Positions 12,451 through 62,375 of a stretch of 64,000 nucleotides of DNA are shown in pieces. Numbering within the stretch: position 1 is the first letter of the stretch; each line of letters opens with the position of its first letter. The translations under genes were made by a program, and so were the position numbers. The notes beneath the pieces were generated by a model. That model did not search any database. It had not been told where the DNA came from and was given only the letters and a program-made list of their open reading frames with translations. This DNA comes from an endosymbiont of Galathealinum brachiosum (GTDB lineage Bacteria > Pseudomonadota > Gammaproteobacteria > SZUA-229), in assembly GCA_003349885.1 (NCBI GenBank), contig QFXC01000011.1, positions 517,355-581,354 of the forward strand, in the 5' to 3' direction.

Positions 12451-13212
12451 TTATTTCTTTTTTCTTCTGCTTATGAGGCCTAGTCCAGTGATTCCAGACA
12501 GGAGCAGTAAGAAGGCGGGTGGTAATGGAACAGGCGTAACGGGTGGAGATATACTTGTTATAGAAGAATTCAAAGCAGCTGTTAATGATAATGCCATTGG
12601 GCTAGTTGAGTTTGCCTGCAAATCAATAAACAAAGACTCGTTTAGCGTTTCCCCCAGTGAAATATCAAAATCAGATAAATCTATTGAAGCGGCCATTAAC
12701 CGAACATTTGAATAAGTTGAGCCATCCCAGTCAACGCGATTAGCAACCTGTTCTGTGCCTGACGTGCTGAAAACATTGGAGACAGTTAATGCCTGGCTTA
12801 CACCATTTATAGAAACGGTTGCATCATTTTGTGTCTGGTCCCAGATAAAAAAGAAGGCAAGATCATCGCCATTACCATTCAGGGCGAAAGTTTGGCTAAA
12901 GTCTAATTCCAGAGACAGGCTGCCGGCACCTTGCATTGCTGCTAAAGACGTGGACAGGTCAGAATCTGTAGTATCGTTAGGTGTATTGGTGTTAGCCCAG
13001 GCCTGACCAGTGTATGTTAGCCATGAGTTACTATCTCTGTTTCCTGCGTACCAGGATGTGCCGTTGTATGCTGTGCCCTGACCTGAAATGAGTTGATCGG
13101 CAACAGCATTATCTTCAAATGCATATGAGCCAATACTTGCAGCATTAACCTGTGAGCCTGCAGCAAGTGCTGCAAATAACAAAACGGGTTTTAAAATAAC
13201 GTTAATGTTCAT
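12451..13212 (-). CDS. secreted protein with C-terminal PEP-CTERM-type (VPLPA-like) sorting signal
   Basis: N-terminal signal peptide (LLFAALAAGSQVNA), then a ~200-aa Ser/Thr/Asn/Asp-rich domain. The C-terminus TPVPLPPAFLLLLSGITGLGLISRRKKK has the motif - TM helix - basic tail layout of PEP-CTERM sorting domains. Confidence 0.65.
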   Translation of the reverse strand: MNINVILKPVLLFAALAAGSQVNAASIGSYAFEDNAVADQLISGQGTAYNGTSWYAGNRDSNSWLTYTGQAWANTNTPNDTTDSDLSTSLAAMQGAGSLSLELDFSQTFALNGNGDDLAFFFIWDQTQNDATVSINGVSQALTVSNVFSTSGTEQVANRVDWDGSTYSNVRLMAASIDLSDFDISLGETLNESLFIDLQANSTSPMALSLTAALNSSITSISPPVTPVPLPPAFLLLLSGITGLGLISRRKKK

Positions 13213-13261
13213 TTTCTTTACTCTTAATTTTTTTATAATTTAAATTTTCAGTATTGAGGTT

Positions 13262-13585
13262 CTACTGAAAAGGCGCCGGTGGCGGCGGCGGTAGTGTTAC
13301 AGGAGTTGGTGGGGCAGAGATAACGGGCGTAGATGCATCTATATTGCTGAACCCGGCAATAGTGTTAGGTGTCAGTATTGCTTCACGCAGAAATGCCGAA
13401 TTCTCATTTGGGCGGAAGTTAACGTTAGGTGTTTTAGCTGGTGGAGGCGTTACTCTGGCAACAGGGCCAGCAGCAGGTTTAAGTCCCTCAGACCATTTCC
13501 CCCATGTGTATACAGAGTCCTGCTCTATTGCTGATGCATGCATGGGTACAAGTAATGCGATTGCTAATAAATATATTCTTTTCAT
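13262..13585 (-). CDS. secreted proline-rich protein (107 aa from ATG at 13583-13585)
   Basis: Signal peptide MKRIYLLAIALLVPMHASA. The C-terminus is Pro-rich (APPTPVTLPPPPPAPFQ). Contains a PAAG tetrapeptide. Confidence 0.45.
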   Translation of the reverse strand: MKRIYLLAIALLVPMHASAIEQDSVYTWGKWSEGLKPAAGPVARVTPPPAKTPNVNFRPNENSAFLREAILTPNTIAGFSNIDASTPVISAPPTPVTLPPPPPAPFQ

Positions 13586-13947
13586 ATTCTTAAACCTTAT
13601 TGATATAGAAAGAATTAAAAGCAAATACGATGCCGATAAATATAAAACCTAACGTAAACAGTCACTTGTGTTCAATAGAATTGAAATGCATTTAATCCGT
13701 TATTTCTGTGGGCTTCTATCCCAGATTTGGAAGATTATAGTTATCGTAAAATGCCTGTCCATACCCCATTCGAGGGGGCGCTGAGGGATATTTATGTAAC
13801 TAATTGATAATAAAGCGAATGTTTAAGCGTGAAGTTTGTTTTTTTAGATGAGCTGTTAAATTCAAAATGATTTGTACTTGCCTGTATTGTAAATACTACC
13901 GACAATGACTTGATTATAGTGTCGGTAATATTTACAGGGCATGTATA

Positions 13948-15210
13948 TTAGAAGAAATAGCGGCGCATATTTAGCGCATAGGTATCTCTGTCATATTCGG
14001 TTTCTGCTATATTTGAATCATTATTAGTAAATGTATATTGAGCATTTAGTGTCCATGATCTCAATAAGCCTGTGCGGAAATCATGACTCACCCCTAATAC
14101 AACAAGTAATTCTGTTTCATCACGTATTTCAGTAAAGCTATTGGCTGTATCTATGGCTTTATATTTGTAGTCTCGGCTACTGGCAGTTAAATAAGCCAGC
14201 GCATCATCCCAGGCGGGCATCTGTCCACCGAGATAATATTCGGCACCTGTGTAGTGAAGTGTGCCATCAACTGCACCATTATCGTGATACCTGATGCCCC
14301 CCTGAATCCCTATTGACTGGCGTTCAAAGAATTTTGCAAGGTCAATATTCCATGTTGTCATGGTGCCCCTGAGTCCCTGATCTTCCGGCTGATCATATTC
14401 CCGAATTGATGTTTTGTTTTCGAAAGTGATTTCAAGGTCTTTTGTGATGCTGTAGGTCGCTAAAGGATTAATGCCTATATATTGGGCATAGTCTTCCTTG
14501 CCAAATATGAGCTTGTCAATTTTAAAATTCAAAGCAGCACGCCATTTTTCTTCAGCTATTAGTGCAGGACCGGTGTTTAAGGTTAATACAGATAAATTGA
14601 AGTCAGTATCATCTGAGCCATAAACTCTGCTGAAAGCCGTTGCCTGAGTATGCCATTCAAAATCAACTATGGAGCCGCCCATGTGTAAGGCCTGACTCGC
14701 TCTTGAGCGGTGTGAATAAGTGAACATGAACTGGCCACCACTACCACTTTGCTCGAGTGTTTCTGGTGTGACGCCGGTTATATCTTTGCCAGGGCCCAGA
14801 TTGATATTTGAATCAGTAAACATACCAGCAGAAATATACATGGAAGAGGTAGATCGTTGAGCAGCTGTTTTTATATCACCTGATAATTGAGCTAAATAAG
14901 CGGTTATAGATAATTTAACTTCATCAGGTGTTTCCGGGTCATTTAAAACAGTGGTTAATTCATCTTTTGCATCTTGATAACGACGTGTCAGGTGATAAGA
15001 GATGGCGAGTTCCAGACGCGCACGATTAAGGCCTGGCTGATTACTTAAAATAGTTTCAAATATTTCAATGGATTTGAATAACTCACCATCCTGACGATAA
15101 CGCATCGCTTCGTTAAATAAAGTCTCCGGATCTACGGCTTCTTCAGCGTAGACAGGTGGTGCGAGAAGCGCTGTAGATAAACAGGCTGATACCAGAATTC
15201 TCCTGATCAT
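13948..15210 (-). CDS. outer-membrane protein: N-terminal TPR-like domain + C-terminal beta-barrel (Slam/DUF560-like architecture)
   Basis: Signal peptide (LLAPPVYAEE). The helical TPR-like N-terminal ~110 aa is followed by alternating amphipathic beta-strand sequence ending in ...RRYFF (C-terminal Phe OMP signature). Confidence 0.5.
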   Translation of the reverse strand: MIRRILVSACLSTALLAPPVYAEEAVDPETLFNEAMRYRQDGELFKSIEIFETILSNQPGLNRARLELAISYHLTRRYQDAKDELTTVLNDPETPDEVKLSITAYLAQLSGDIKTAAQRSTSSMYISAGMFTDSNINLGPGKDITGVTPETLEQSGSGGQFMFTYSHRSRASQALHMGGSIVDFEWHTQATAFSRVYGSDDTDFNLSVLTLNTGPALIAEEKWRAALNFKIDKLIFGKEDYAQYIGINPLATYSITKDLEITFENKTSIREYDQPEDQGLRGTMTTWNIDLAKFFERQSIGIQGGIRYHDNGAVDGTLHYTGAEYYLGGQMPAWDDALAYLTASSRDYKYKAIDTANSFTEIRDETELLVVLGVSHDFRTGLLRSWTLNAQYTFTNNDSNIAETEYDRDTYALNMRRYFF

Positions 15211-15478
15211 TTAAATATCCTCAATACAATAAGTAATTTTTCGTGATATTGACGTTTTTTAGGTGTTTTTACAAGGAAAACCGTGATTCTTATCCCATAT
15301 GGGGGGGTGTACTAATTAAGTGTGGGCAGATGAATCAGGTGGTATATACATGAAAAATTGATATTAAAGCCCGTCGCTAGCTATAAGCTATTTTTAAAAG
15401 CGTCCTTAGGCTATTATATTTAACGGTAATTAGCTTAAGCAGGTATGAGTTGTTGATCTACGTAAAGAAGGCGCAAGT

Positions 15479-16114
15479 TTGAGGCAAAAAAGTAAATATT
15501 TACTACATTTTTTGAGTTTGTTGTTTGTTGTGATTCCAGATATTGCTTTGGCAGGGCTTTTTGGATATCAGGAAAATGAACGTGAAAATTTAAAGATGTT
15601 TCCTCAATGGTTATCTGTCTTAGAACGAAATATCAAAGAAAGTGCGCCAGAGGGTAATTGTGAAAGTAGTCGGCTGGATAGTTGTCATGTGAAAAACTGG
15701 TTAAGTTTTCTGAAAAGCATTCGGCATCTTTCAAAAATGCAGCAGATAAATAAGGTTAATCTTTATGCCAATGAGCATGACTATATTTTAGATATAGAAA
15801 ATTACGGTGTTAAAGATTACTGGGCGACTCCCAGAGAGTTTTTATACAATAATGGTGACTGTGAAGATTATGCAATAACTAAAATGCTCTCATTAAAAAT
15901 GTTAGGTTTTAATATGAAGGGTATTAGGTTGGTAGTATTGCAGGATACAAACTTGAGAACACCTCATGCTGTTTTAGCATTGCACACTAAAAATGATATT
16001 TTGATAATGGATAATCAGGTGGATGAGGTTGTGTCACATAAACATATTGTACATTATGTGCCGGTTTATGCAGTGAATGAAAATAAGTGGTGGATGTTTT
16101 TGCCGCAACAATAA
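15479..16114 (+). CDS. periplasmic transglutaminase-like cysteine proteinase (BTLCP / Peptidase C93, LapG-like)
   Basis: TTG start with a GAAGG RBS. Signal peptide, then a candidate C-H-D triad in the conserved context (NNGDCEDYAITK ... TPHAVLALH ... IMDNQ). Confidence 0.65.
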   Translation: MRQKSKYLLHFLSLLFVVIPDIALAGLFGYQENERENLKMFPQWLSVLERNIKESAPEGNCESSRLDSCHVKNWLSFLKSIRHLSKMQQINKVNLYANEHDYILDIENYGVKDYWATPREFLYNNGDCEDYAITKMLSLKMLGFNMKGIRLVVLQDTNLRTPHAVLALHTKNDILIMDNQVDEVVSHKHIVHYVPVYAVNENKWWMFLPQQ

Positions 16115-16165
16115 TGCGAAATTAATCTGTTGTTTAGCTTGCTAAAGTATTTATAAGATAAATGT

Positions 16166-18187
16166 ATGAAAGATAAAAGAACTTCAAAAAAAACAAATTC
16201 CCCTCCCTTGCTGGCAAGTATTTTTCTGGTGTTTTTTGTCGCGATAAGTTTGTGGTTGATTTTTGAGTATGCAGAAAAAGAGAGAAGTCGTGATTTAATA
16301 AACTGGAAAACCCGATTAGCTTTACTGGCTGAGATACGCGCGGCGGCTGTTGAAGACTGGATTGGATTGAGGAAAATCCAGTTGAATAAACTGGCGGAAA
16401 ATGCCAGTTTAAGATTATATCTTTCGGCATATAATAATCGTGATGAAGTTGATAAAAATGTATTGGGCGCTGAGCAGGGGCACGTAAGAAACTTATTACG
16501 AGCAAGCGCGGATCGTTTTGGCTTTGCAGAAAATATAAGCGCGATAAATAAAAATAATTCAAGTGATTATGGACTAGCGATTTTAGATGCAAATCGCCAG
16601 CTTGTTATGTCTACAAAAGGTTTTCCAGATAATGTTGATATACATAGCGGTGTTATAGATAAAGTATATTCGACAGCAAAGTCGCTGATAATAGATTTAT
16701 ATGCGGGGGAAAATAAACAACCGGTTTATGGTTACATAATACCTGTATTTCAGATTCAGGATCTTGAAGCAGTGAATCCTGTTGGCGCAGTTATGCTGTT
16801 GCTGGATCCACAAAAGAATCTATTTTCTATATTAAAAAACAAACAAAGTGTAACGATTTCTGATGAAACATTGCTTGTTAAAAGAGATGGACCAAGCCTT
16901 GTTTTCTTAAGTCCGGTGAAAGGCGAGTTTAAACTGTTTTATCGTCTTCCTGATAATAACAATCAGTTAGCCGCATCTTATGCGTATCATAACCCGGGTG
17001 GTTTTAAAGAAATCAAGGATTATAGAGGAAATGACGTACTGGTGACGGGTCGTAAAATCAAGAATAGCCCCTGGGGGTTAGTGCAGAAAATTTCTTCTTC
17101 TGAAGCGTTAGCTGAATCGAACAAACATCAGGAGTTTTTAATAACAACATTTATATTGTTTGTGATTGGAGTCGCAGCCGCGTTTGTTGCAATCTGGCGT
17201 CACAGTACCAGTTTGCGTTTACAGTCTTTGAGTGATGAGCTTGAAGTTAGAACAGTTTTGCTAGATGCTGTTACGGATAATATAAAAGATAATATTCTTT
17301 TACTGGATCATGATTCAAAAATTATTTTTATAAATATTGCATTTGCAAAAGCCTTGTCGCTGGATGTTGATGAAATAAGATCAAAGCACATAACCAGTGT
17401 GCTTGGAAAGGAAACGGCAGAATCATTAGTTAATAGTTCATGTGAAGATAGTAAAGCATGTGTTATGGCGTTACAGATAGAGGCCAGTGAGCGTGTATAC
17501 CATGTGTCATCTACTCGGCTGGAGTCGGGTGCGCATCAAAGTGCAACTTTATATGTATTGCACGATATAAGCGAGTTAAAGCAGGAGCAGGAAAAACGTG
17601 AACAACTGGGGCAAGGGATTATTCAAACTTTAGTTAAAGCGGTAGATTTGCATGATCCGTTTTGTATCAATCATTCTGAGCGTACGCGTGATGTTGCAGT
17701 AGAAATAGCTAAAGAAATGGATTTAACTAATATTCAGTTAGAGTCTCTTGAAATGGCGTCTTTACTTGCCAATATAGGTAAGTTATTCGTGCCGAAGGAG
17801 ATCCTGATTAAAATGGAAGCATTGTCAGATGATGAGTCTAAACAATTGAAAAAGCATATTGAGTATGCTGTTGATATATTGTCAGGGCTTTCGTTTAATG
17901 GACCTGTTGTTGATATAATTTCACAGAAAAATGAACGACTTGATGGCAGTGGGTATCCTAAAGGTATAACAGGTAATGATATTATGCTTGAATCACGAAT
18001 CCTGGCTGTAGCAAATGCATTCGTCGCAATGGCTAGTTCGCGAGCGTATCGAGAAGGCCGTGATGTAAAAGAAGTAATGAATATCCTTCTAGAACAGTCT
18101 GAATCATTATATGACCGTCATGTTGTTGCTGCTTTATTTCATATATCAGAGAATAAAGCAGACTGGAAAACGTGGCAGAGTATATAA
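16166..18187 (+). CDS. membrane sensor: periplasmic Cache-like domain - TM - PAS - HD-GYP c-di-GMP phosphodiesterase
   Basis: TM helices at ~residues 15-37 and ~321-343, bracketing a ~285-aa Cache-like periplasmic domain. A PAS-like region follows, then HD-GYP motifs (DLHDPFCINHSERTRD ...NIGKLFVP... ERLDGSGYPKGI). Confidence 0.7.
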   Translation: MKDKRTSKKTNSPPLLASIFLVFFVAISLWLIFEYAEKERSRDLINWKTRLALLAEIRAAAVEDWIGLRKIQLNKLAENASLRLYLSAYNNRDEVDKNVLGAEQGHVRNLLRASADRFGFAENISAINKNNSSDYGLAILDANRQLVMSTKGFPDNVDIHSGVIDKVYSTAKSLIIDLYAGENKQPVYGYIIPVFQIQDLEAVNPVGAVMLLLDPQKNLFSILKNKQSVTISDETLLVKRDGPSLVFLSPVKGEFKLFYRLPDNNNQLAASYAYHNPGGFKEIKDYRGNDVLVTGRKIKNSPWGLVQKISSSEALAESNKHQEFLITTFILFVIGVAAAFVAIWRHSTSLRLQSLSDELEVRTVLLDAVTDNIKDNILLLDHDSKIIFINIAFAKALSLDVDEIRSKHITSVLGKETAESLVNSSCEDSKACVMALQIEASERVYHVSSTRLESGAHQSATLYVLHDISELKQEQEKREQLGQGIIQTLVKAVDLHDPFCINHSERTRDVAVEIAKEMDLTNIQLESLEMASLLANIGKLFVPKEILIKMEALSDDESKQLKKHIEYAVDILSGLSFNGPVVDIISQKNERLDGSGYPKGITGNDIMLESRILAVANAFVAMASSRAYREGRDVKEVMNILLEQSESLYDRHVVAALFHISENKADWKTWQSI

Positions 18188-18308: not shown

Positions 18309-20513
18309 ATGTATGAATCTTTTTATGGGCTTACGGAAAAGCCATTTACATTATTACCTGATCCGGACTATTTATATCTGAGTCCTAAACATCAACGGGC
18401 GTTGACGCTTCTTGAATATGGCATGATGAATCAGGCTGGCTTTAGCGTAATCTGTGGTGATACAGGGGCTGGTAAAACAACCCTGATTCGACGTCTCTTG
18501 ACTGAATTGGGTGATGACACCAAAGTCGGTCTTATAAATAATACCCATCACTCATTTGGTGAATTGCTTAACTGGGTTTTGATGGCATTTGGCATTGATG
18601 GTGACGGCAAGAGCAAAGCCCAGATGCACCAGATGTTCATCGACTTTCTGATTGAACAGTATGCTCAGAATAAACACACAGTTTTGATAGTTGATGAAGC
18701 GCAGAACATGAAGGCCGATACATTAGAAGAACTGCGCATGTTGTCGAATATTAATTCAGATAAAGATCAGGTGTTACAGGTTATTCTGGCGGGGCAACCT
18801 GCACTGCGTGAAACTTTACGCCAGCCTGAGTTAATGCAGTTTGCGCAGCGTATAGCCGTAGATTATTACCTTGAATCACTGAGTGTTGAGGAAACAAATG
18901 CTTATATTCATCACCGACTAAAGGTTGCGGGCACTGAAAATACGATTTTCACGGATGCCGCCTGTGAAGCAATATTTAAATACAGTGGTGGGACACCGCG
19001 ACTAATTAACCTTCTTTGTGATACAGCACTTGTATATGGTTTTGCTGAGCAAAGCGAAGAAATAAGCGAACAATTAGTACATGACGTAGTGCGCGAGCAA
19101 CATAGCAATAGCATTATACCTACGTTTAACACGGATCATTCTGGTTCGGTTTCCAATCCAGCTAAGAATAGCCCGGATCCTGCCCCATTAGTTGATGTGC
19201 CGATTACACAAAGTGATCAGAAAATAAGTGAGCAGAGTGCTGCTTATGAAAAAACAGAAAAAAAGGTCGTAGTTGCTGAGCCACCAGTTAACGAAGAAGA
19301 TAGAGCAGAGAAATCAGCTGAATTACTTCAGCAAGCCAGTCAACAGACAGCCAGTGTGGTCGGTAGTGCTGAGTCGACAGCTCCAGTTTCTCATACAGAG
19401 TCTTTGTCTGGTATAGAAAAGGCACAGATTAGAAATACGGCTAATGACACTTCAAAAGATGAATCTAATGTAACACCGATAAAGGCTGTGCTGTCTGAAG
19501 CGGAAGAAGTAATTGAAGAGTTAGATGCGGCTGAATTAGAGGATGATACAGATCAGCAAGTTGCGTCTGACGTTAAAGAGCCTGAGCAGGCGAGATCAGA
19601 TGAGACGTTTAAAGAGCCAGTTGATCAGGATCAGGAAAGCGGGTCTGGTGAAAGCTCACCAGAAGATATCCTTAGCCATAATGCCCCTGAAATGGGAAGG
19701 CGAAAAGAGGATGTTGAAGAAATAGCACCATATATGTCACGTAGAAAGCGTGATAACGAAGATGACGATGTTTATCCGATTGTGCATATAGAAGAGAATC
19801 CGAATAAGGGATTCAATATGGTAGTGATTGGCGTTGTTGGGGGAATGTTTGTTGCTTCCATTATAATGATGATAGCTGCCTGGACGATGTTTGGATCAAA
19901 AGATAATATTGATCAACAGGCTGTACAGAAAAACTTAAATCAGCAATTACAGTTAGAGGATGAAAGTCGTGAGCTTAAAGCATTGCAAAAAGAGCGTGAT
20001 GCAGCTTTAGCCGTAACACGCGCGCTTGAAAGAGAGCGTGATGCAGCGATAACTGCAGCAAAAGCACAGGAAGAAATTCGTGCAGCCGAGTTACGTGCAG
20101 CCGAGATATTAGCTGAGCAGCAACGTAGAGCGGATAAGAAATTACAGCAGGCTAGAGCCCGAATAAGAGAGGCTGAACTAGCTGAGTCTAAGGCACTGGC
20201 ACGAGAACATGAAATGCAGCTAGCAGCTGAAAGAAAAGAGTCTGAGTTAGAAAATGAGCGTCTTAGGCTGCTTCGTAAAGAACGGATAAGATTAGAAGCT
20301 CTTGCAGTTGATGAAGAAATGGCCGCAATACGTTTGAAAGAAAAACAAAGCCTTATAGAAGAGTCAGAAGTAGTTGATGAAGTAGTTGATGAAGTAGCGG
20401 ATGAAGTAGCGGATGAAGATAAAGTCCAGACAAAACCCGAAGAAGCTAAGAGTTTTTCATCAAATCCATGTAATAGTCCTTCAGCAAAATTTTTGTCTAC
20501 CTGTAAAAAGTAA
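18309..20513 (+). CDS. ExeA/GspA-family AAA ATPase fused to acidic linker, TM helix and TolA-like periplasmic coiled coil
   Basis: N-terminal FYGLTEKPFTLLPDPDYLYLSPKHQRALTLLEYGMMNQAGFSVICGDTGAGKTTLIRRLL (ExeA/MshM-type Walker A) with Walker B LIVDEAQN. A long acidic low-complexity region is followed by a TM helix (VVIGVVGGMFVASIIMMIAAW), an Ala/Glu/Arg-rich coiled coil and a VDEV tandem repeat. Confidence 0.65.
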   Translation: MYESFYGLTEKPFTLLPDPDYLYLSPKHQRALTLLEYGMMNQAGFSVICGDTGAGKTTLIRRLLTELGDDTKVGLINNTHHSFGELLNWVLMAFGIDGDGKSKAQMHQMFIDFLIEQYAQNKHTVLIVDEAQNMKADTLEELRMLSNINSDKDQVLQVILAGQPALRETLRQPELMQFAQRIAVDYYLESLSVEETNAYIHHRLKVAGTENTIFTDAACEAIFKYSGGTPRLINLLCDTALVYGFAEQSEEISEQLVHDVVREQHSNSIIPTFNTDHSGSVSNPAKNSPDPAPLVDVPITQSDQKISEQSAAYEKTEKKVVVAEPPVNEEDRAEKSAELLQQASQQTASVVGSAESTAPVSHTESLSGIEKAQIRNTANDTSKDESNVTPIKAVLSEAEEVIEELDAAELEDDTDQQVASDVKEPEQARSDETFKEPVDQDQESGSGESSPEDILSHNAPEMGRRKEDVEEIAPYMSRRKRDNEDDDVYPIVHIEENPNKGFNMVVIGVVGGMFVASIIMMIAAWTMFGSKDNIDQQAVQKNLNQQLQLEDESRELKALQKERDAALAVTRALERERDAAITAAKAQEEIRAAELRAAEILAEQQRRADKKLQQARARIREAELAESKALAREHEMQLAAERKESELENERLRLLRKERIRLEALAVDEEMAAIRLKEKQSLIEESEVVDEVVDEVADEVADEDKVQTKPEEAKSFSSNPCNSPSAKFLSTCKK
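20372..20419 (+). repeat. 4 x 12-bp tandem repeat (gtagttgatgaa / gtagcggatgaa) inside the ExeA-like CDS
   Basis: Direct tandem copies encoding (V[VA]DE)x4. A slippage-prone in-frame repeat. Confidence 0.7.
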
Positions 20514-20681
20514 CAAACTAGCCCTGCTTATCTAGCAGGGCTGTCTAAAATAGTGATTGTATTAAACAGCAAAATCAAGACTAATTAGAGTCATTTCTAA
20601 AAAACTGCATTACTCATATTTATACAAACTCAAAGCTTAATTGAACTACACTATGTATACCTGATTTAATACGAGAATGAT

Positions 20682-25400: not shown

Positions 25401-25673
25401 TTACTCTAGAAAAACCAGACCAATCCCGTCAGGCTCATGCCGTACAACTTTTGCTCGGTTTACAGGTGGTTCTTCACCATCACCTAGCTGGTTTTTAAGG
25501 CGAACCTGCACTTCAGTATCAACTTTAGGAAGCTCAATATTATCAAGAATGAGATAAAGTCCTCCATCACTAATGTTGCGGGTGCGTACATTCATCATAT
25601 CCTGACCTGGAAGTGTAAGTTCAATATCTACGATAAGGCCTATGCGTAAGTGTTTTCTATTTTCAGATGACAT
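25401..25673 (-). CDS. PilZ-domain c-di-GMP binding protein
   Basis: 90 aa with an RxxxR motif (RKHLRIG) and a D/NxSxGG motif (NISDGGLYL). Confidence 0.7.
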   Translation of the reverse strand: MSSENRKHLRIGLIVDIELTLPGQDMMNVRTRNISDGGLYLILDNIELPKVDTEVQVRLKNQLGDGEEPPVNRAKVVRHEPDGIGLVFLE

Positions 25674-61823: not shown

Positions 61824-62375
61824 ATGAAAAGACAATCAGGTTTCACATTAATCGAAATAGCCATTGTACTTGTTATTATCGGTTTGTTATTGGGTGGGGT
61901 ATTAAAAGGTCAGGAAATGATGACCAATGCTAAGATCAAGCGTATTTCTAATGACTATAACGGTATTTCAGCAGCAACATTTTCATATCTTGATCGTTAT
62001 TCTTCATTCCCGGGCGATGATCCAAATGCAGCAGCGCGTTGGGGTGGTGCAGTTGTAAGTGGTGACGGCGATGGCCTTATTGATGCCGGAGAGCAACCTG
62101 ACGTTTGGGAGCACTTAAGAGCATCTGGTCTGGTTTCAGGCACGGGTACTACTAATCCCACTCATGCATTTGGTGGTATTATTCGAGTTCAGCAAAATGG
62201 TGCAGGTTTAACGGGCACAGTAATCTGCATGTTAAATATGCCAGGTAAAACAGCTGAAATTATAGACAGACAGGTTGATGACGGTAATGGTAATACCGGT
62301 GAGTTTAGACAAACTGTTAACTCTGTTACTTATGATCAGAATGTTACCAATCTGGAAGTTTGTAAAAAGCTTTAA
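61824..62375 (+). CDS. type IV pilin-like protein (prepilin-type N-terminal methylation domain)
   Basis: MKRQSGFTLIEIAIVLVIIGLLLGG matches the class III signal (G-1/F+1/E+5). 183 aa. Two C-terminal Cys residues (VICM...EVCKKL) are consistent with a D-region disulfide. Confidence 0.75.
   Translation: MKRQSGFTLIEIAIVLVIIGLLLGGVLKGQEMMTNAKIKRISNDYNGISAATFSYLDRYSSFPGDDPNAAARWGGAVVSGDGDGLIDAGEQPDVWEHLRASGLVSGTGTTNPTHAFGGIIRVQQNGAGLTGTVICMLNMPGKTAEIIDRQVDDGNGNTGEFRQTVNSVTYDQNVTNLEVCKKL

What the first reader, a model, noticed from the sequence alone, without database searches (positions are those of the whole stretch)
18309..20513. ExeA/GspA-type AAA ATPase with non-canonical periplasmic module (acidic linker, single TM, TolA-like coiled coil, VDEV repeats)
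Residues ~1-270 match the ExeA/MshM/GspA secretion-associated ATPase family (Walker A GDTGAGKTT, Walker B LIVDEAQN). Canonical ExeA continues into a peptidoglycan-binding periplasmic domain. Here the ATPase is followed by ~220 aa of acidic low-complexity sequence, one TM helix, an ~170-aa Ala/Glu/Arg/Lys-rich coiled coil reminiscent of the TolA helical domain, and a 4x(V-x-D-E) tandem repeat encoded by a 12-bp DNA repeat (20372-20419) that could vary by slippage. PEP-CTERM loci are known to include an ExeA-like ATPase subfamily, so the PEP-CTERM protein 5 kb away is a plausible client.
Basis: partly seen in the sequence, partly recalled or inferred. Interest (0 to 1): 0.55.

Follow-up and report, generated by a model that had tools for sequence, protein, structure and literature searches.

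The report
GspA-like ATPase fused to periplasmic stalk
This gene of a tubeworm's sulfur-oxidizing symbiont fuses a secretion-type ATPase to its membrane partner, a long periplasmic helix ending in an almost invariant two-cysteine peptide; the family is conserved but unstudied, it resembles known GspA-GspB fusions, and it is not tied to the nearby PEP-CTERM protein.

Summary
The layout is a GspA/ExeA/TIGR03015-type AAA+ domain, a disordered acidic linker of about 228 aa, one TM helix, a 147-residue helix and a 12-bp repeat. The protein belongs to a conserved family seen almost only in uncultured Gammaproteobacteria. The C-terminal module is rare (43 representatives among 1.84 billion proteins). 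In one lineage it is a separate gene directly downstream of the cognate ATPase, so the two halves work together. The distance from the TM helix to the first tail cysteine is held at 187 ± 10 aa although most of that stretch varies in sequence. Best reading: a fused ATPase-plus-bitopic-partner unit analogous to GspAB, with a new periplasmic module and an unknown periplasmic or outer-membrane target. The PEP-CTERM "client" idea fails. TIGR03015 scores do not discriminate and stay below cutoff, and the window has no exosortase. The VPLPA-CTERM neighbour belongs to a separable Slam/BTLCP/DvhD-like module that also occurs without this ATPase. This is a new variant of a known kind, of moderate interest.

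The parts
18309..20513 (+). Whole gene, 734 codons plus stop: ATPase, linker, TM helix, helix, spacer, Cys-loop tail
   Evidence: ORF list. 100% identical to a hypothetical protein (locus tag DIZ80_10910) of the MAG 'endosymbiont of Galathealinum brachiosum', with more than 100 full-length homologue clusters.
18309..19118 (+). Cytoplasmic AAA+ P-loop domain (aa 1-270) of the GspA/ExeA/TIGR03015 superfamily
   Evidence: AAA_22 95.8 bits and TIGR03015 302.9 bits, end to end. Mean column identity 0.90. Fold-level matches to MuB, ORC/Cdc6, RuvB and TnsC.
18456..18482 (+). Walker A motif GDTGAGKTT (aa 50-58)
   Evidence: All nine residues are invariant in the 27-sequence alignment.
18684..18707 (+). 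Walker B motif LIVDEAQN (aa 126-133)
   Evidence: L126-N133 are invariant.
19119..19802 (+). Acidic, disordered cytoplasmic linker (aa 271-498), with a short conserved motif SNVTPIK
   Evidence: 22% D+E and net charge -32 over 271-515. pLDDT below 50 for 276-498. Column identity 0.21. Length 140-301 aa across the family.
19773..19811 (+). Conserved juxtamembrane motif YPIVHIEENPNKG (aa 489-501)
   Evidence: Y489 and P490 invariant; region identity 0.77. Specific to the close clade.
19812..19892 (+). Single transmembrane helix (about aa 502-528)
   Evidence: Kyte-Doolittle mean 2.59 over 19 residues, the only segment above 1.6. AF2 helix 499-529. Present in all 139 family members measured.
19968..20138 (+). 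Conserved membrane-proximal part of the periplasmic helix (aa 554-610) with two ERDAA motifs 14 residues apart; heptad-like periodicity
   Evidence: Column identity 0.79, with E562 R563 D564 and E576 R577 D578 A579 A580 invariant. Period-3.5 peak reached by 156 of 5000 shuffles.
20139..20366 (+). Variable polyampholyte continuation of the helix (aa 611-686)
   Evidence: AF2 models one continuous helix 540-686. Identity 0.47. No heptad signal.
20367..20450 (+). Poorly conserved flexible spacer (aa 687-714) containing the 12-bp tandem repeat 20367-20418 (VVDEVVDEVADEVADE)
   Evidence: TRF: 4.3 copies, 95% matches. Identity 0.24. pLDDT below 50. 21-nt in-frame indel relative to the 83%-identical relative.
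20451..20510 (+). Near-invariant C-terminal tail KSFSSNPCNSPSAKFLSTCKK (aa 714-734; this part covers aa 715-734, SFSS...CKK) with two invariant cysteines 10 residues apart
   Evidence: Column identity 0.93. F716, N719, P720, C721, S725, K727, F728, L729, S730, T731, C732 and K733 are invariant. The motif is kept in distant fused and stand-alone forms.
20519..20543 (+). GC-rich 10-bp hairpin 6 nt after the stop codon (possible terminator or stabiliser; no U-tract on the + strand)
   Evidence: MFE -19.1 kcal/mol, z = -3.4, 0 of 200 shuffles fold as well. Also reported.
12451..18187 (.). Adjacent but separable module: VPLPA-CTERM protein (12451-13212, -), small secreted protein (13262-13624, -), Slam-type TPR/beta-barrel protein (13948-15210, -), BTLCP/LapG-like protease (15479-16114, +), dCache-PAS-HD-GYP DvhD-like receptor (16166-18187, +)
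   Evidence: Family scans. Synteny in L001-L004 and L089-L091. In 80 BTLCP-centred loci the triad is always together, while the ATPase-stalk follows in only 34 of 47.

Best explanation
The gene encodes a two-part inner-membrane machine that has been fused into one polypeptide. The first part is a cytoplasmic, catalytically intact AAA+ ATPase of the GspA/ExeA/TIGR03015 superfamily. The second part is its cognate bitopic partner. Shown: the domain layout, the conservation pattern, the co-inheritance of the two halves with both fused and split forms, and independence from the neighbouring genes. Inferred: because the ATPase needs cytoplasmic ATP and there is a single TM helix, the last roughly 205 residues lie in the periplasm. 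They consist of a conserved coiled-coil-like base (ERDAA x2), a sequence-variable but length-constrained helix, a flexible spacer, and an invariant tail whose two cysteines probably form a disulfide loop. By analogy with GspA-GspB/ExeAB, ATP-dependent oligomerisation of the cytoplasmic domains would organise a bundle or ring of stalks. The tips of those stalks, about 20 nm or more from the inner membrane, would dock onto a conserved periplasmic, peptidoglycan or outer-membrane partner to assemble or anchor an envelope structure. The partner is unknown. In this symbiont's clade the gene sits next to a Slam/BTLCP/DvhD-like module, but that linkage is not family-wide.
For: ATPase identity and intact Walker motifs. 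Fold-level similarity to oligomerising AAA+ proteins. Single TM helix and one 147-residue helix. The C-terminal module is a rare, specific family: 43 representatives at E<=1e-3 among 1.84 billion proteins. Stand-alone partner proteins exist. In L084, L086 and L093 they lie directly downstream, on the same strand, of a separate ATPase that is 56-67% identical to this N-domain. P0145, from the same lineage, reads through as a fusion. All tail-associated ATPases, fused or split, form one clade in the tree. The TM-to-Cys distance is 187 aa (SD 9.8, n=139) although much of that stretch has 0.24-0.47 column identity, while the cytoplasmic linker ranges 140-301 aa. Literature: GspA is a cytoplasmic ATPase with a TM segment and a periplasmic domain that acts with bitopic GspB, and GspAB fusions of varied domain content arose repeatedly (PMC9239104). 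The ExeA ATPase is required for ExeAB complex formation and secretin multimerisation (PMC4098917). In other loci, ATPases of this superfamily are immediately followed by small single-TM genes.
Against: No partner or target has been identified, and no secretin, Wza-like, T2SS or EPS gene is conserved next to the family. The periplasmic module has no GspB homology-region or PG-binding domain, and no Pfam or NCBIfam hit at all. Topology, the disulfide and oligomerisation are inferred, not tested. The tree has no bootstrap support. The length constraint is measured on many closely related sequences, so phylogenetic inertia inflates it. Clean split cases come from a single lineage, and two further 'splits' (L006, L094) look like frameshifts.
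Confidence: 0.55

Rival explanations
1. It is the XrtA/PEP-CTERM-system ATPase (TIGR03015) of this organism, and it handles the VPLPA-CTERM protein encoded 5 kb upstream.
For: TIGR03015 is the best NCBIfam hit and matches end to end. The nearest outgroup ATPases sit in genuine XrtA/PEP-CTERM EPS-export loci (L014). A VPLPA-CTERM-type protein is conserved in the same block across the close clade.
Against: The score of 302.9 is below the 324.5 cutoff and matches that of an ExeA-type protein and other relatives. The 64-kb window has no exosortase or EPS genes. Distant fused and split members have no PEP-CTERM-type protein in their flanks. The VPLPA-CTERM protein persists beside the Slam-type gene in loci that lack the ATPase-stalk. 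Canonical members are soluble proteins of 270-480 aa.
Confidence: 0.06
2. In this clade the protein is a working component, or the substrate, of the neighbouring Lap/Dvh-like c-di-GMP-controlled proteolysis module. For example, its tail might dock on the TPR domain of the Slam-type outer-membrane protein, or the BTLCP protease might cut the stalk at the conserved Asp-Ala-Ala sites.
For: The gene order Slam | BTLCP, DvhD-like, ATPase-stalk is kept in every close-clade locus examined, even where the downstream flank changes. No strong promoter-like site lies in the 121-bp gap. The ERDAA motifs are invariant. DvhG/DvhD pairs regulate periplasmic cleavage (PMC13090378).
Against: Thirteen of 47 triad loci lack the ATPase-stalk. 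Fused and split members in other lineages lack the triad. The tail is invariant even where no Slam gene is adjacent. The Dvh paper never mentions an ATPase. Known LapG-type substrates are adhesin retention modules, which is a statement from general knowledge, not tested here.
Confidence: 0.15
3. It is an orthodox T2SS GspAB fusion that assembles a GspD or PilQ secretin encoded elsewhere in the genome.
For: The superfamily and overall logic match, and GspAB fusions are documented. A prepilin-like ORF exists at 61824-62375, so pilus or T2SS-type machinery is present in the organism.
Against: ExeA-type ATPases with a PG-binding end lie on the opposite side of the tree. There is no PG-binding or GspB homology-region domain. 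No gsp genes are adjacent in any lineage.
Confidence: 0.08
4. The C-terminal region is functionally unimportant low-complexity sequence attached to a membrane-anchored ATPase, and the VDEV repeat is the only 'feature'.
For: The linker and spacer are disordered and poorly conserved. The repeat is absent from the 83%-identical relative.
Against: The tail (0.93) and helix 554-610 (0.79) are as conserved as the ATPase (0.90). The module survives as an independent gene. Its length is constrained.
Confidence: 0.02

Closest known systems
GspA-GspB / ExeA-ExeB and natural GspAB (EpsAB) fusions of type II secretion
   Same: A cytoplasmic AAA+ ATPase of the same superfamily, a single TM helix, cooperation with (or fusion to) a bitopic partner whose periplasmic part reaches toward the outer membrane, and repeated fusion and fission in Gammaproteobacteria.
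   Different: No PG-binding (PF01471) or cysteine-peptidase-like domain and no GspB homology region. Instead there is a long helix plus a Cys-loop peptide. The gene is not in a gsp locus, and the ATPase falls in a different branch from the ExeA-type proteins.
TIGR03015 XrtA/PEP-CTERM system-associated ATPase
   Same: It is the best-scoring curated model, matched end to end. The nearest outgroup (for example L014) is a genuine member in an EPS-export locus.
   Different: The score is below the curated cutoff. Canonical members are soluble, 270-480 aa, and embedded in polysaccharide-export clusters. This protein carries a TM helix and periplasmic module and lies outside any such cluster.
TolA (domain II) and other periplasm-spanning helical tethers
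   Same: An inner-membrane anchor followed by a long Ala/Glu/Lys/Arg-rich helix of roughly periplasmic length, with a small C-terminal interaction element. This rests on general knowledge.
   Different: No sequence similarity was detected and there is no globular domain III. It is coupled to a cytoplasmic ATPase, not to a TolQR proton-motive-force motor, and the anchor follows a large cytoplasmic domain instead of sitting at the N-terminus.
Lap / Dvh c-di-GMP-controlled periplasmic proteolysis system (LapD-LapG, DvhD-DvhG)
   Same: The two genes immediately upstream are a BTLCP protease and a dCache-PAS-HD-GYP protein with the DvhD architecture.
   Different: That system has no ATPase component. 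The ATPase-stalk and the triad each occur without the other.

Membership tests
AAA+ / P-loop NTPase, AAA_22 (ExeA-like) group | Walker A GxxGxGK[ST] and Walker B hhhhDE, with a Pfam AAA_22 match above the gathering score | tested here: met
   AAA_22 scores 95.8 bits against a cutoff of 27. GDTGAGKTT and LIVDEAQN are invariant.
GspA/ExeA (T2SS assembly ATPase) | A single TM segment after the cytoplasmic ATPase domain | tested here: met
   One hydrophobic segment at about 502-528; AF2 helix 499-529.
GspA/ExeA (T2SS assembly ATPase) | A periplasmic peptidoglycan-binding domain (PF01471), with or without a cysteine-peptidase-like domain (PMC9239104) | tested here: not met
   Among the 25 families shown of 31 at E<=1, none matches mainly beyond residue 173. 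ExeA-type relatives L081 and L082 end in a '...DGIVG...' motif that I take to be PG-binding-like, which this protein lacks.
GspA/ExeA (T2SS assembly ATPase) | Co-location with gspB or other gsp genes | tested here: not met
   Neighbours are the HD-GYP gene and pyruvate kinase. No gsp genes were found in any family locus.
GspA/ExeA (T2SS assembly ATPase) | Phylogenetic grouping of the ATPase domain with ExeA-type proteins | tested here: not met
   In the NJ tree, L081 and L082 are distant, and this protein groups with the tail-associated ATPases next to EPS-locus ATPases (no bootstrap).
GspAB-type fusion (ATPase fused to its bitopic partner) | The two halves occur as adjacent separate genes in some genomes and as one polypeptide in others | tested here: met
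   Split in L084, L086 and L093; fused in the window, L001-L005, L008, L042 and P0145.
GspAB-type fusion (ATPase fused to its bitopic partner) | The partner carries the GspB homology region that binds secretin N0 | tested here: not met
   No Pfam or NCBIfam hit to the partner region or to stand-alone P0142. AF2 shows only a helix and a short tail.
TIGR03015 XrtA/PEP-CTERM system-associated ATPase | HMM score at or above the curated cutoff of 324.5 bits | tested here: not met
   302.9 bits. The model also gives 285-318 bits to ExeA-type and other relatives, so sub-cutoff scores do not discriminate.
TIGR03015 XrtA/PEP-CTERM system-associated ATPase | Location in an XrtA/EPS-export gene cluster (export protein, chain-length determinant, tyrosine kinase, exosortase) | tested here: not met
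   No such genes in the 64-kb window. Compare L014, which has them.
TIGR03015 XrtA/PEP-CTERM system-associated ATPase | An exosortase is present in the genome | not testable with these tools
   Only a 64-kb window is available. The VPLPA-CTERM neighbour implies that an exosortase exists somewhere in the genome.
TolA | Sequence or fold homology to TolA domains II/III and partnership with TolQR | tested here: not met
   No PDB sequence match (best E = 0.11, MinE). No Pfam TolA hit. The resemblance is compositional only. TolA domain II is poorly represented in the PDB, so this is a weak negative.
Canonical coiled coil | Significant heptad (3.5-residue) hydrophobic periodicity along the helix | tested here: inconclusive
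   Present in 554-610 on family-averaged hydrophobicity (156 of 5000 shuffles) but absent in 611-686 (1573 of 5000). Not significant on the single sequence. No dedicated coiled-coil predictor was available.
Anti-phage defence systems (PADLOC) | A significant match to a defence-system protein model | tested here: not met
   Only P-loop-level hits of 16-20 bits.

The most novel reading that the evidence does not exclude
The ATPase-stalk is an ATP-powered counterpart of the TolA/TonB type of energy transducer, or a periplasmic 'ruler'. A cytoplasmic AAA+ ring would transmit conformational work or positional information through a length-calibrated stalk of about 190 residues. The disulfide-stapled invariant tip would dock on an outer-membrane partner. 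In this symbiont's clade that partner could be the neighbouring Slam-type translocon, which would couple ATP and c-di-GMP status to surface display or release of the VPLPA-CTERM protein.
Probability: 0.1. Interest if true: 0.8.

Novelty: new variant of a known kind. Interest (0 to 1): 0.45.

Why it matters
GspA-type ATPases are among the least understood accessory parts of envelope machines, and how a cytoplasmic ATPase influences assembly at the outer membrane remains unresolved. This family offers a stripped-down case: the ATPase, one TM helix, a length-constrained helix and a 19-residue invariant tip, with no peptidoglycan-binding domain. That makes the tip-partner interaction and the role of stalk length directly testable. 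The work also separates the ATPase from a neighbouring Slam/BTLCP/DvhD-like/VPLPA-CTERM module. That module looks like an undescribed form of the Lap/Dvh adhesin-release circuit in sulfur-oxidizing symbionts and sediment bacteria.

Tried and rejected
(1) TIGR03015 versus ExeA discrimination by HMM score was not informative, because all relatives score 285-318 bits, below the cutoff.

(2) PDB sequence searches found nothing, either with the whole protein or with the C-terminal module (best E = 0.11).

(3) The Foldseek PDB search returned only generic AAA+ matches with RMSD of 14-18 Å, usable at fold level only.

(4) Pfam and NCBIfam scans of stand-alone partner P0142 and of genes flanking the split and distant modules gave no hits.

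(5) Two small proteins (about 92 aa and about 150 aa) recur near distant family members, but profile searches found no counterpart in the window.

(6) L006 and L094 were first counted as split genes but look like frameshifted fusions, with the TM helix interrupted or in another frame, so they were set aside.

(7) A classic ER/K single-alpha-helix reading was rejected because i-to-i+4 acid-base pairs are rare.

(8) A defence-system reading was rejected by the PADLOC scan.

(9) Covalent Lpp-like attachment through a C-terminal lysine was considered and rejected, because family tails also end in ...CR...CN...CKE and ...CQE.

(10) Literature searches for TIGR03015, VPLPA-CTERM, or Slam together with LapG found nothing relevant. 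The founding PEP-CTERM paper never mentions the ATPase.

Full report
**Observation.**
The ORF at 18309-20513 (+) is real and encodes 734 aa. Pfam places residues 42-170 in AAA_22 (95.8 bits) well ahead of AAA_16 (32.4). NCBIfam TIGR03015 matches residues 1-264 end to end (profile positions 1-266 of 269) at 302.9 bits, under the curated cutoff of 324.5. A Kyte-Doolittle scan finds one hydrophobic segment, at about 502-528. Region 271-515 is 22% Asp+Glu with net charge -32. TRF finds a 12-bp repeat at 20367-20418 with 4.3 copies. An AlphaFold2 model built on 27 homologues has mean pLDDT 55, as expected for a protein that is roughly one-third disordered. It shows a P-loop domain, a disordered 276-498, a TM helix 499-529, one unbroken helix 540-686 (pLDDT 82-91), a disordered 687-719 and a short terminal helix. 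The protein is identical to a hypothetical protein of the MAG 'endosymbiont of Galathealinum brachiosum', a sulfur-oxidizing gammaproteobacterial symbiont.

More than 100 clusters of full-length homologues (47-83% identity, 640-800 aa) share the architecture. Mean column identity by region is:

| Region | Residues | Column identity |
|---|---|---|
| ATPase | 1-270 | 0.90 |
| Linker | 271-485 | 0.21 |
| Juxtamembrane motif | 486-500 | 0.77 |
| Helix, proximal part | 554-610 | 0.79 |
| Helix, distal part | 611-686 | 0.47 |
| Spacer | 687-714 | 0.24 |
| Tail | 715-734 | 0.93 |

The tail, FSxNPCNSPSAKFLSTCKK, has two invariant cysteines. The VDEV repeat lies in the least conserved spacer and is absent from the 83%-identical relative. 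At the DNA level the window carries a 21-nt in-frame insertion there. 'Coiled coil' needs qualifying. Family-averaged hydrophobicity shows a period-3.5 peak in 554-610 (156 of 5000 shuffles reach it) but not in 611-686 (1573 of 5000). The sequence also lacks the i-to-i+4 salt-bridge pattern of ER/K single helices.

**The two halves are one functional unit.**
I searched residues 485-734 alone against 1.84 billion representative proteins. Only 43 hits came back at E<=1e-3. Some are complete proteins of 220-320 aa with no ATPase: a short acidic N-terminus, one TM helix, a helix, and the same [ND]PC..PSA.FLSTC tail. In L084, L086 and L093 these stand-alone genes lie directly downstream, on the same strand, of a separate ATPase gene. 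The two complete copies are 315-335 aa and 63-67% identical to this N-domain; the partial copy in L093 is 56% identical. These loci come from different samples and assemblers. P0145, from the same lineage, reads through as a fusion. Two further apparent splits (L006, L094) look like frameshifts and were not counted. One distant partner (P0147) follows a MOSC gene on a short contig. In an NJ tree of ATPase domains, without bootstrap, all tail-associated ATPases form a single clade whether fused or split. Across 139 proteins the distance from the TM helix to the first tail cysteine is 187 aa (SD 9.8, range 165-224). The cytoplasmic linker, by contrast, ranges from 140 to 301 aa. Many of these sequences are close relatives, so the constraint is suggestive, not proven.

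**Which known family?**
TIGR03015 does not discriminate. An ExeA-type protein with a peptidoglycan-binding-like end (L082) scores 288 bits, a Methylophilus EPS-locus ATPase 299.5, the split ATPases 285-305, and a planctomycete ATPase 318. All are below the cutoff. Most plain relatives in species genomes are 270-310 aa and nearly all lack a TM helix. The nearest outgroup to the tail clade (for example L014, Thiogranum) sits at the end of a canonical XrtA/PEP-CTERM export cluster (pepcterm_export, the TIGR03016 outer-membrane protein, ChnLen above its cutoff, TyrKin). ExeA-type proteins lie far away, grouped with ATPases that are followed by small single-TM genes starting 'MS-I--AL+K'. From memory that resembles the GspB N-terminus, which I did not verify. 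According to the literature, GspA is a cytoplasmic ATPase followed by a TM segment and periplasmic cysteine-peptidase-like and PG-binding domains, and it acts with bitopic GspB. [quoted passage not shown] The ExeA ATPase is needed for ExeAB complex formation and secretin multimerisation (PMC4098917). The present protein therefore works like a GspAB-type fusion. It fails membership of GspA proper (no PG-binding domain, no gsp context, a different branch) and of TIGR03015 proper (below cutoff, no EPS locus, a different architecture). No Pfam, NCBIfam, PDB or PADLOC model covers the periplasmic module. Foldseek links the N-domain only generically to oligomerising AAA+ proteins such as MuB, ORC/Cdc6, RuvB and TnsC.

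**Genomic context and the PEP-CTERM idea.**
In the window the gene follows a BTLCP/LapG-like protease (15479-16114) and a dCache-PAS-HD-GYP protein (16166-18187). The latter has the architecture of the recently characterised c-di-GMP receptor DvhD. Transcribed divergently are a Slam-type TPR/beta-barrel protein, a small secreted protein, and a 253-aa protein ending in a VPLPA-CTERM anchor. This block is conserved across the close clade, even where the downstream flank differs. It is nevertheless separable from the ATPase-stalk. Distant fused members (L005, L008, L042) and split members (L084, L086) have none of these genes and no PEP-CTERM-type protein nearby. In 80 BTLCP-centred metagenome loci the Slam-type gene (52 of 52) and the DvhD-like gene (47 of 47) always accompany the protease, but the ATPase-stalk follows in only 34 of 47. 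In six of the ATPase-less loci with enough flank, the VPLPA-CTERM protein is still beside the Slam-type gene. The PEP-CTERM-type protein therefore belongs to the Slam/BTLCP/DvhD-like module, not to the ATPase. The 64-kb window contains no exosortase or EPS genes.

**Mechanism.**
Shown: the architecture, the conservation pattern, the rarity of the module, fusion and fission with a dedicated ATPase clade, and independence from neighbouring modules. Inferred: (i) the ATPase and linker are cytoplasmic and the last roughly 205 residues periplasmic; (ii) the two invariant cysteines form a disulfide loop; (iii) the helix of about 22 nm plus the flexible spacer place the tail near the peptidoglycan or outer membrane; (iv) ATP-dependent oligomerisation organises the stalks, and the tail docks on a conserved partner, as in ExeAB-assisted assembly. 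I give this general mechanism about 0.55. A clade-specific functional tie to the Lap/Dvh-like module remains possible (about 0.15). An orthodox T2SS role (about 0.08) and the PEP-CTERM client role (about 0.06) are less likely.

**Verdict.**
The object is a new variant of a known kind: a GspA-like ATPase fused to a previously undescribed periplasmic stalk-and-tip partner. It belongs to a conserved family seen so far almost only in uncultured, mostly marine sulfur-oxidizing Gammaproteobacteria. Interest is moderate (0.45). ATPase-partner fusion is already known, but the invariant tip and the length-constrained stalk give a clean, testable handle on how GspA-type ATPases act across the envelope.

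Noticed in passing
window 12451-18187 (also L001-L004, L089-L091, L097-L176): A five-gene module is conserved: VPLPA-CTERM protein, small secreted protein, Slam-type TPR/beta-barrel protein (with a SlipAM hit in L090), BTLCP/LapG-like protease, and a dCache-PAS-HD-GYP DvhD-like receptor. In 80 loci the Slam-type gene (52 of 52) and the DvhD-like gene (47 of 47) always accompany the protease. It looks like a Lap/Dvh-type c-di-GMP proteolysis circuit built around a Slam-type outer-membrane protein and a PEP-CTERM-class protein, with no adjacent T1SS or giant adhesin. I found no paper describing it.
   Followed up: partly
L005 3407-3697(-) and 9722-10138(+); L008, L042, L084 11255-11533(-) and 11864-12316(+); L006: Two small uncharacterised proteins, one of about 92-132 aa and one Cys-rich of about 138-153 aa, recur within a few kb of the ATPase-stalk module in all distant lineages. 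They have no Pfam match and no counterpart in the window.
   Followed up: partly
L094 7217-9673(+): An 818-aa paralogue lies next to a (possibly frameshifted) ATPase/partner pair. It has the same ATPase type (56% identity), followed by about 370 aa of Ala/Glu/Lys-rich helix-like sequence and a TM segment near the C-terminus. That is the opposite order of helix and membrane anchor.
   Followed up: no
L064, L066, L071, L083, L082 (gene immediately downstream of the ATPase): Plain 270-aa ATPases from Planctomycetota, Omnitrophota and Verrucomicrobia loci, and an ExeA-type protein, are each followed by a 159-202-aa single-TM gene starting 'MS-I--AL+K'. From memory this resembles the GspB N-terminus, which would mean the ATPase-plus-bitopic-partner pairing extends far beyond Proteobacteria. 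I did not verify the GspB resemblance.
   Followed up: partly
window 20519-20543: A stable 10-bp GC-rich hairpin lies 6 nt after the stop codon (z = -3.4). It has no U-tract on the + strand, while the consensus scan calls it terminator-like on the - strand.
   Followed up: partly
window 25401-25673 (-): A 90-aa ORF occupies the position held in L002, L089 and L090 by a 90-aa PilZ-domain gene. That would make it a second putative c-di-GMP-binding protein within about 5 kb of the DvhD-like receptor.
   Followed up: no
window 61824-62375 (+): A 183-aa ORF begins MKRQSGFTLIEIAIVLVIIGLLLGG, which is a prepilin/pseudopilin-type N-terminus. So type IV pilus or T2SS-like machinery exists in the genome.
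   Followed up: no
L014 15233-20767 (-): In the Thiogranum MAG locus, a run of ORFs with prepilin-type N-termini, apparently a T2SS gsp pseudopilin cluster, lies about 4 kb from the EPS-locus TIGR03015-type ATPase. The identification rests on N-terminal sequences only and was not annotated further.
   Followed up: no
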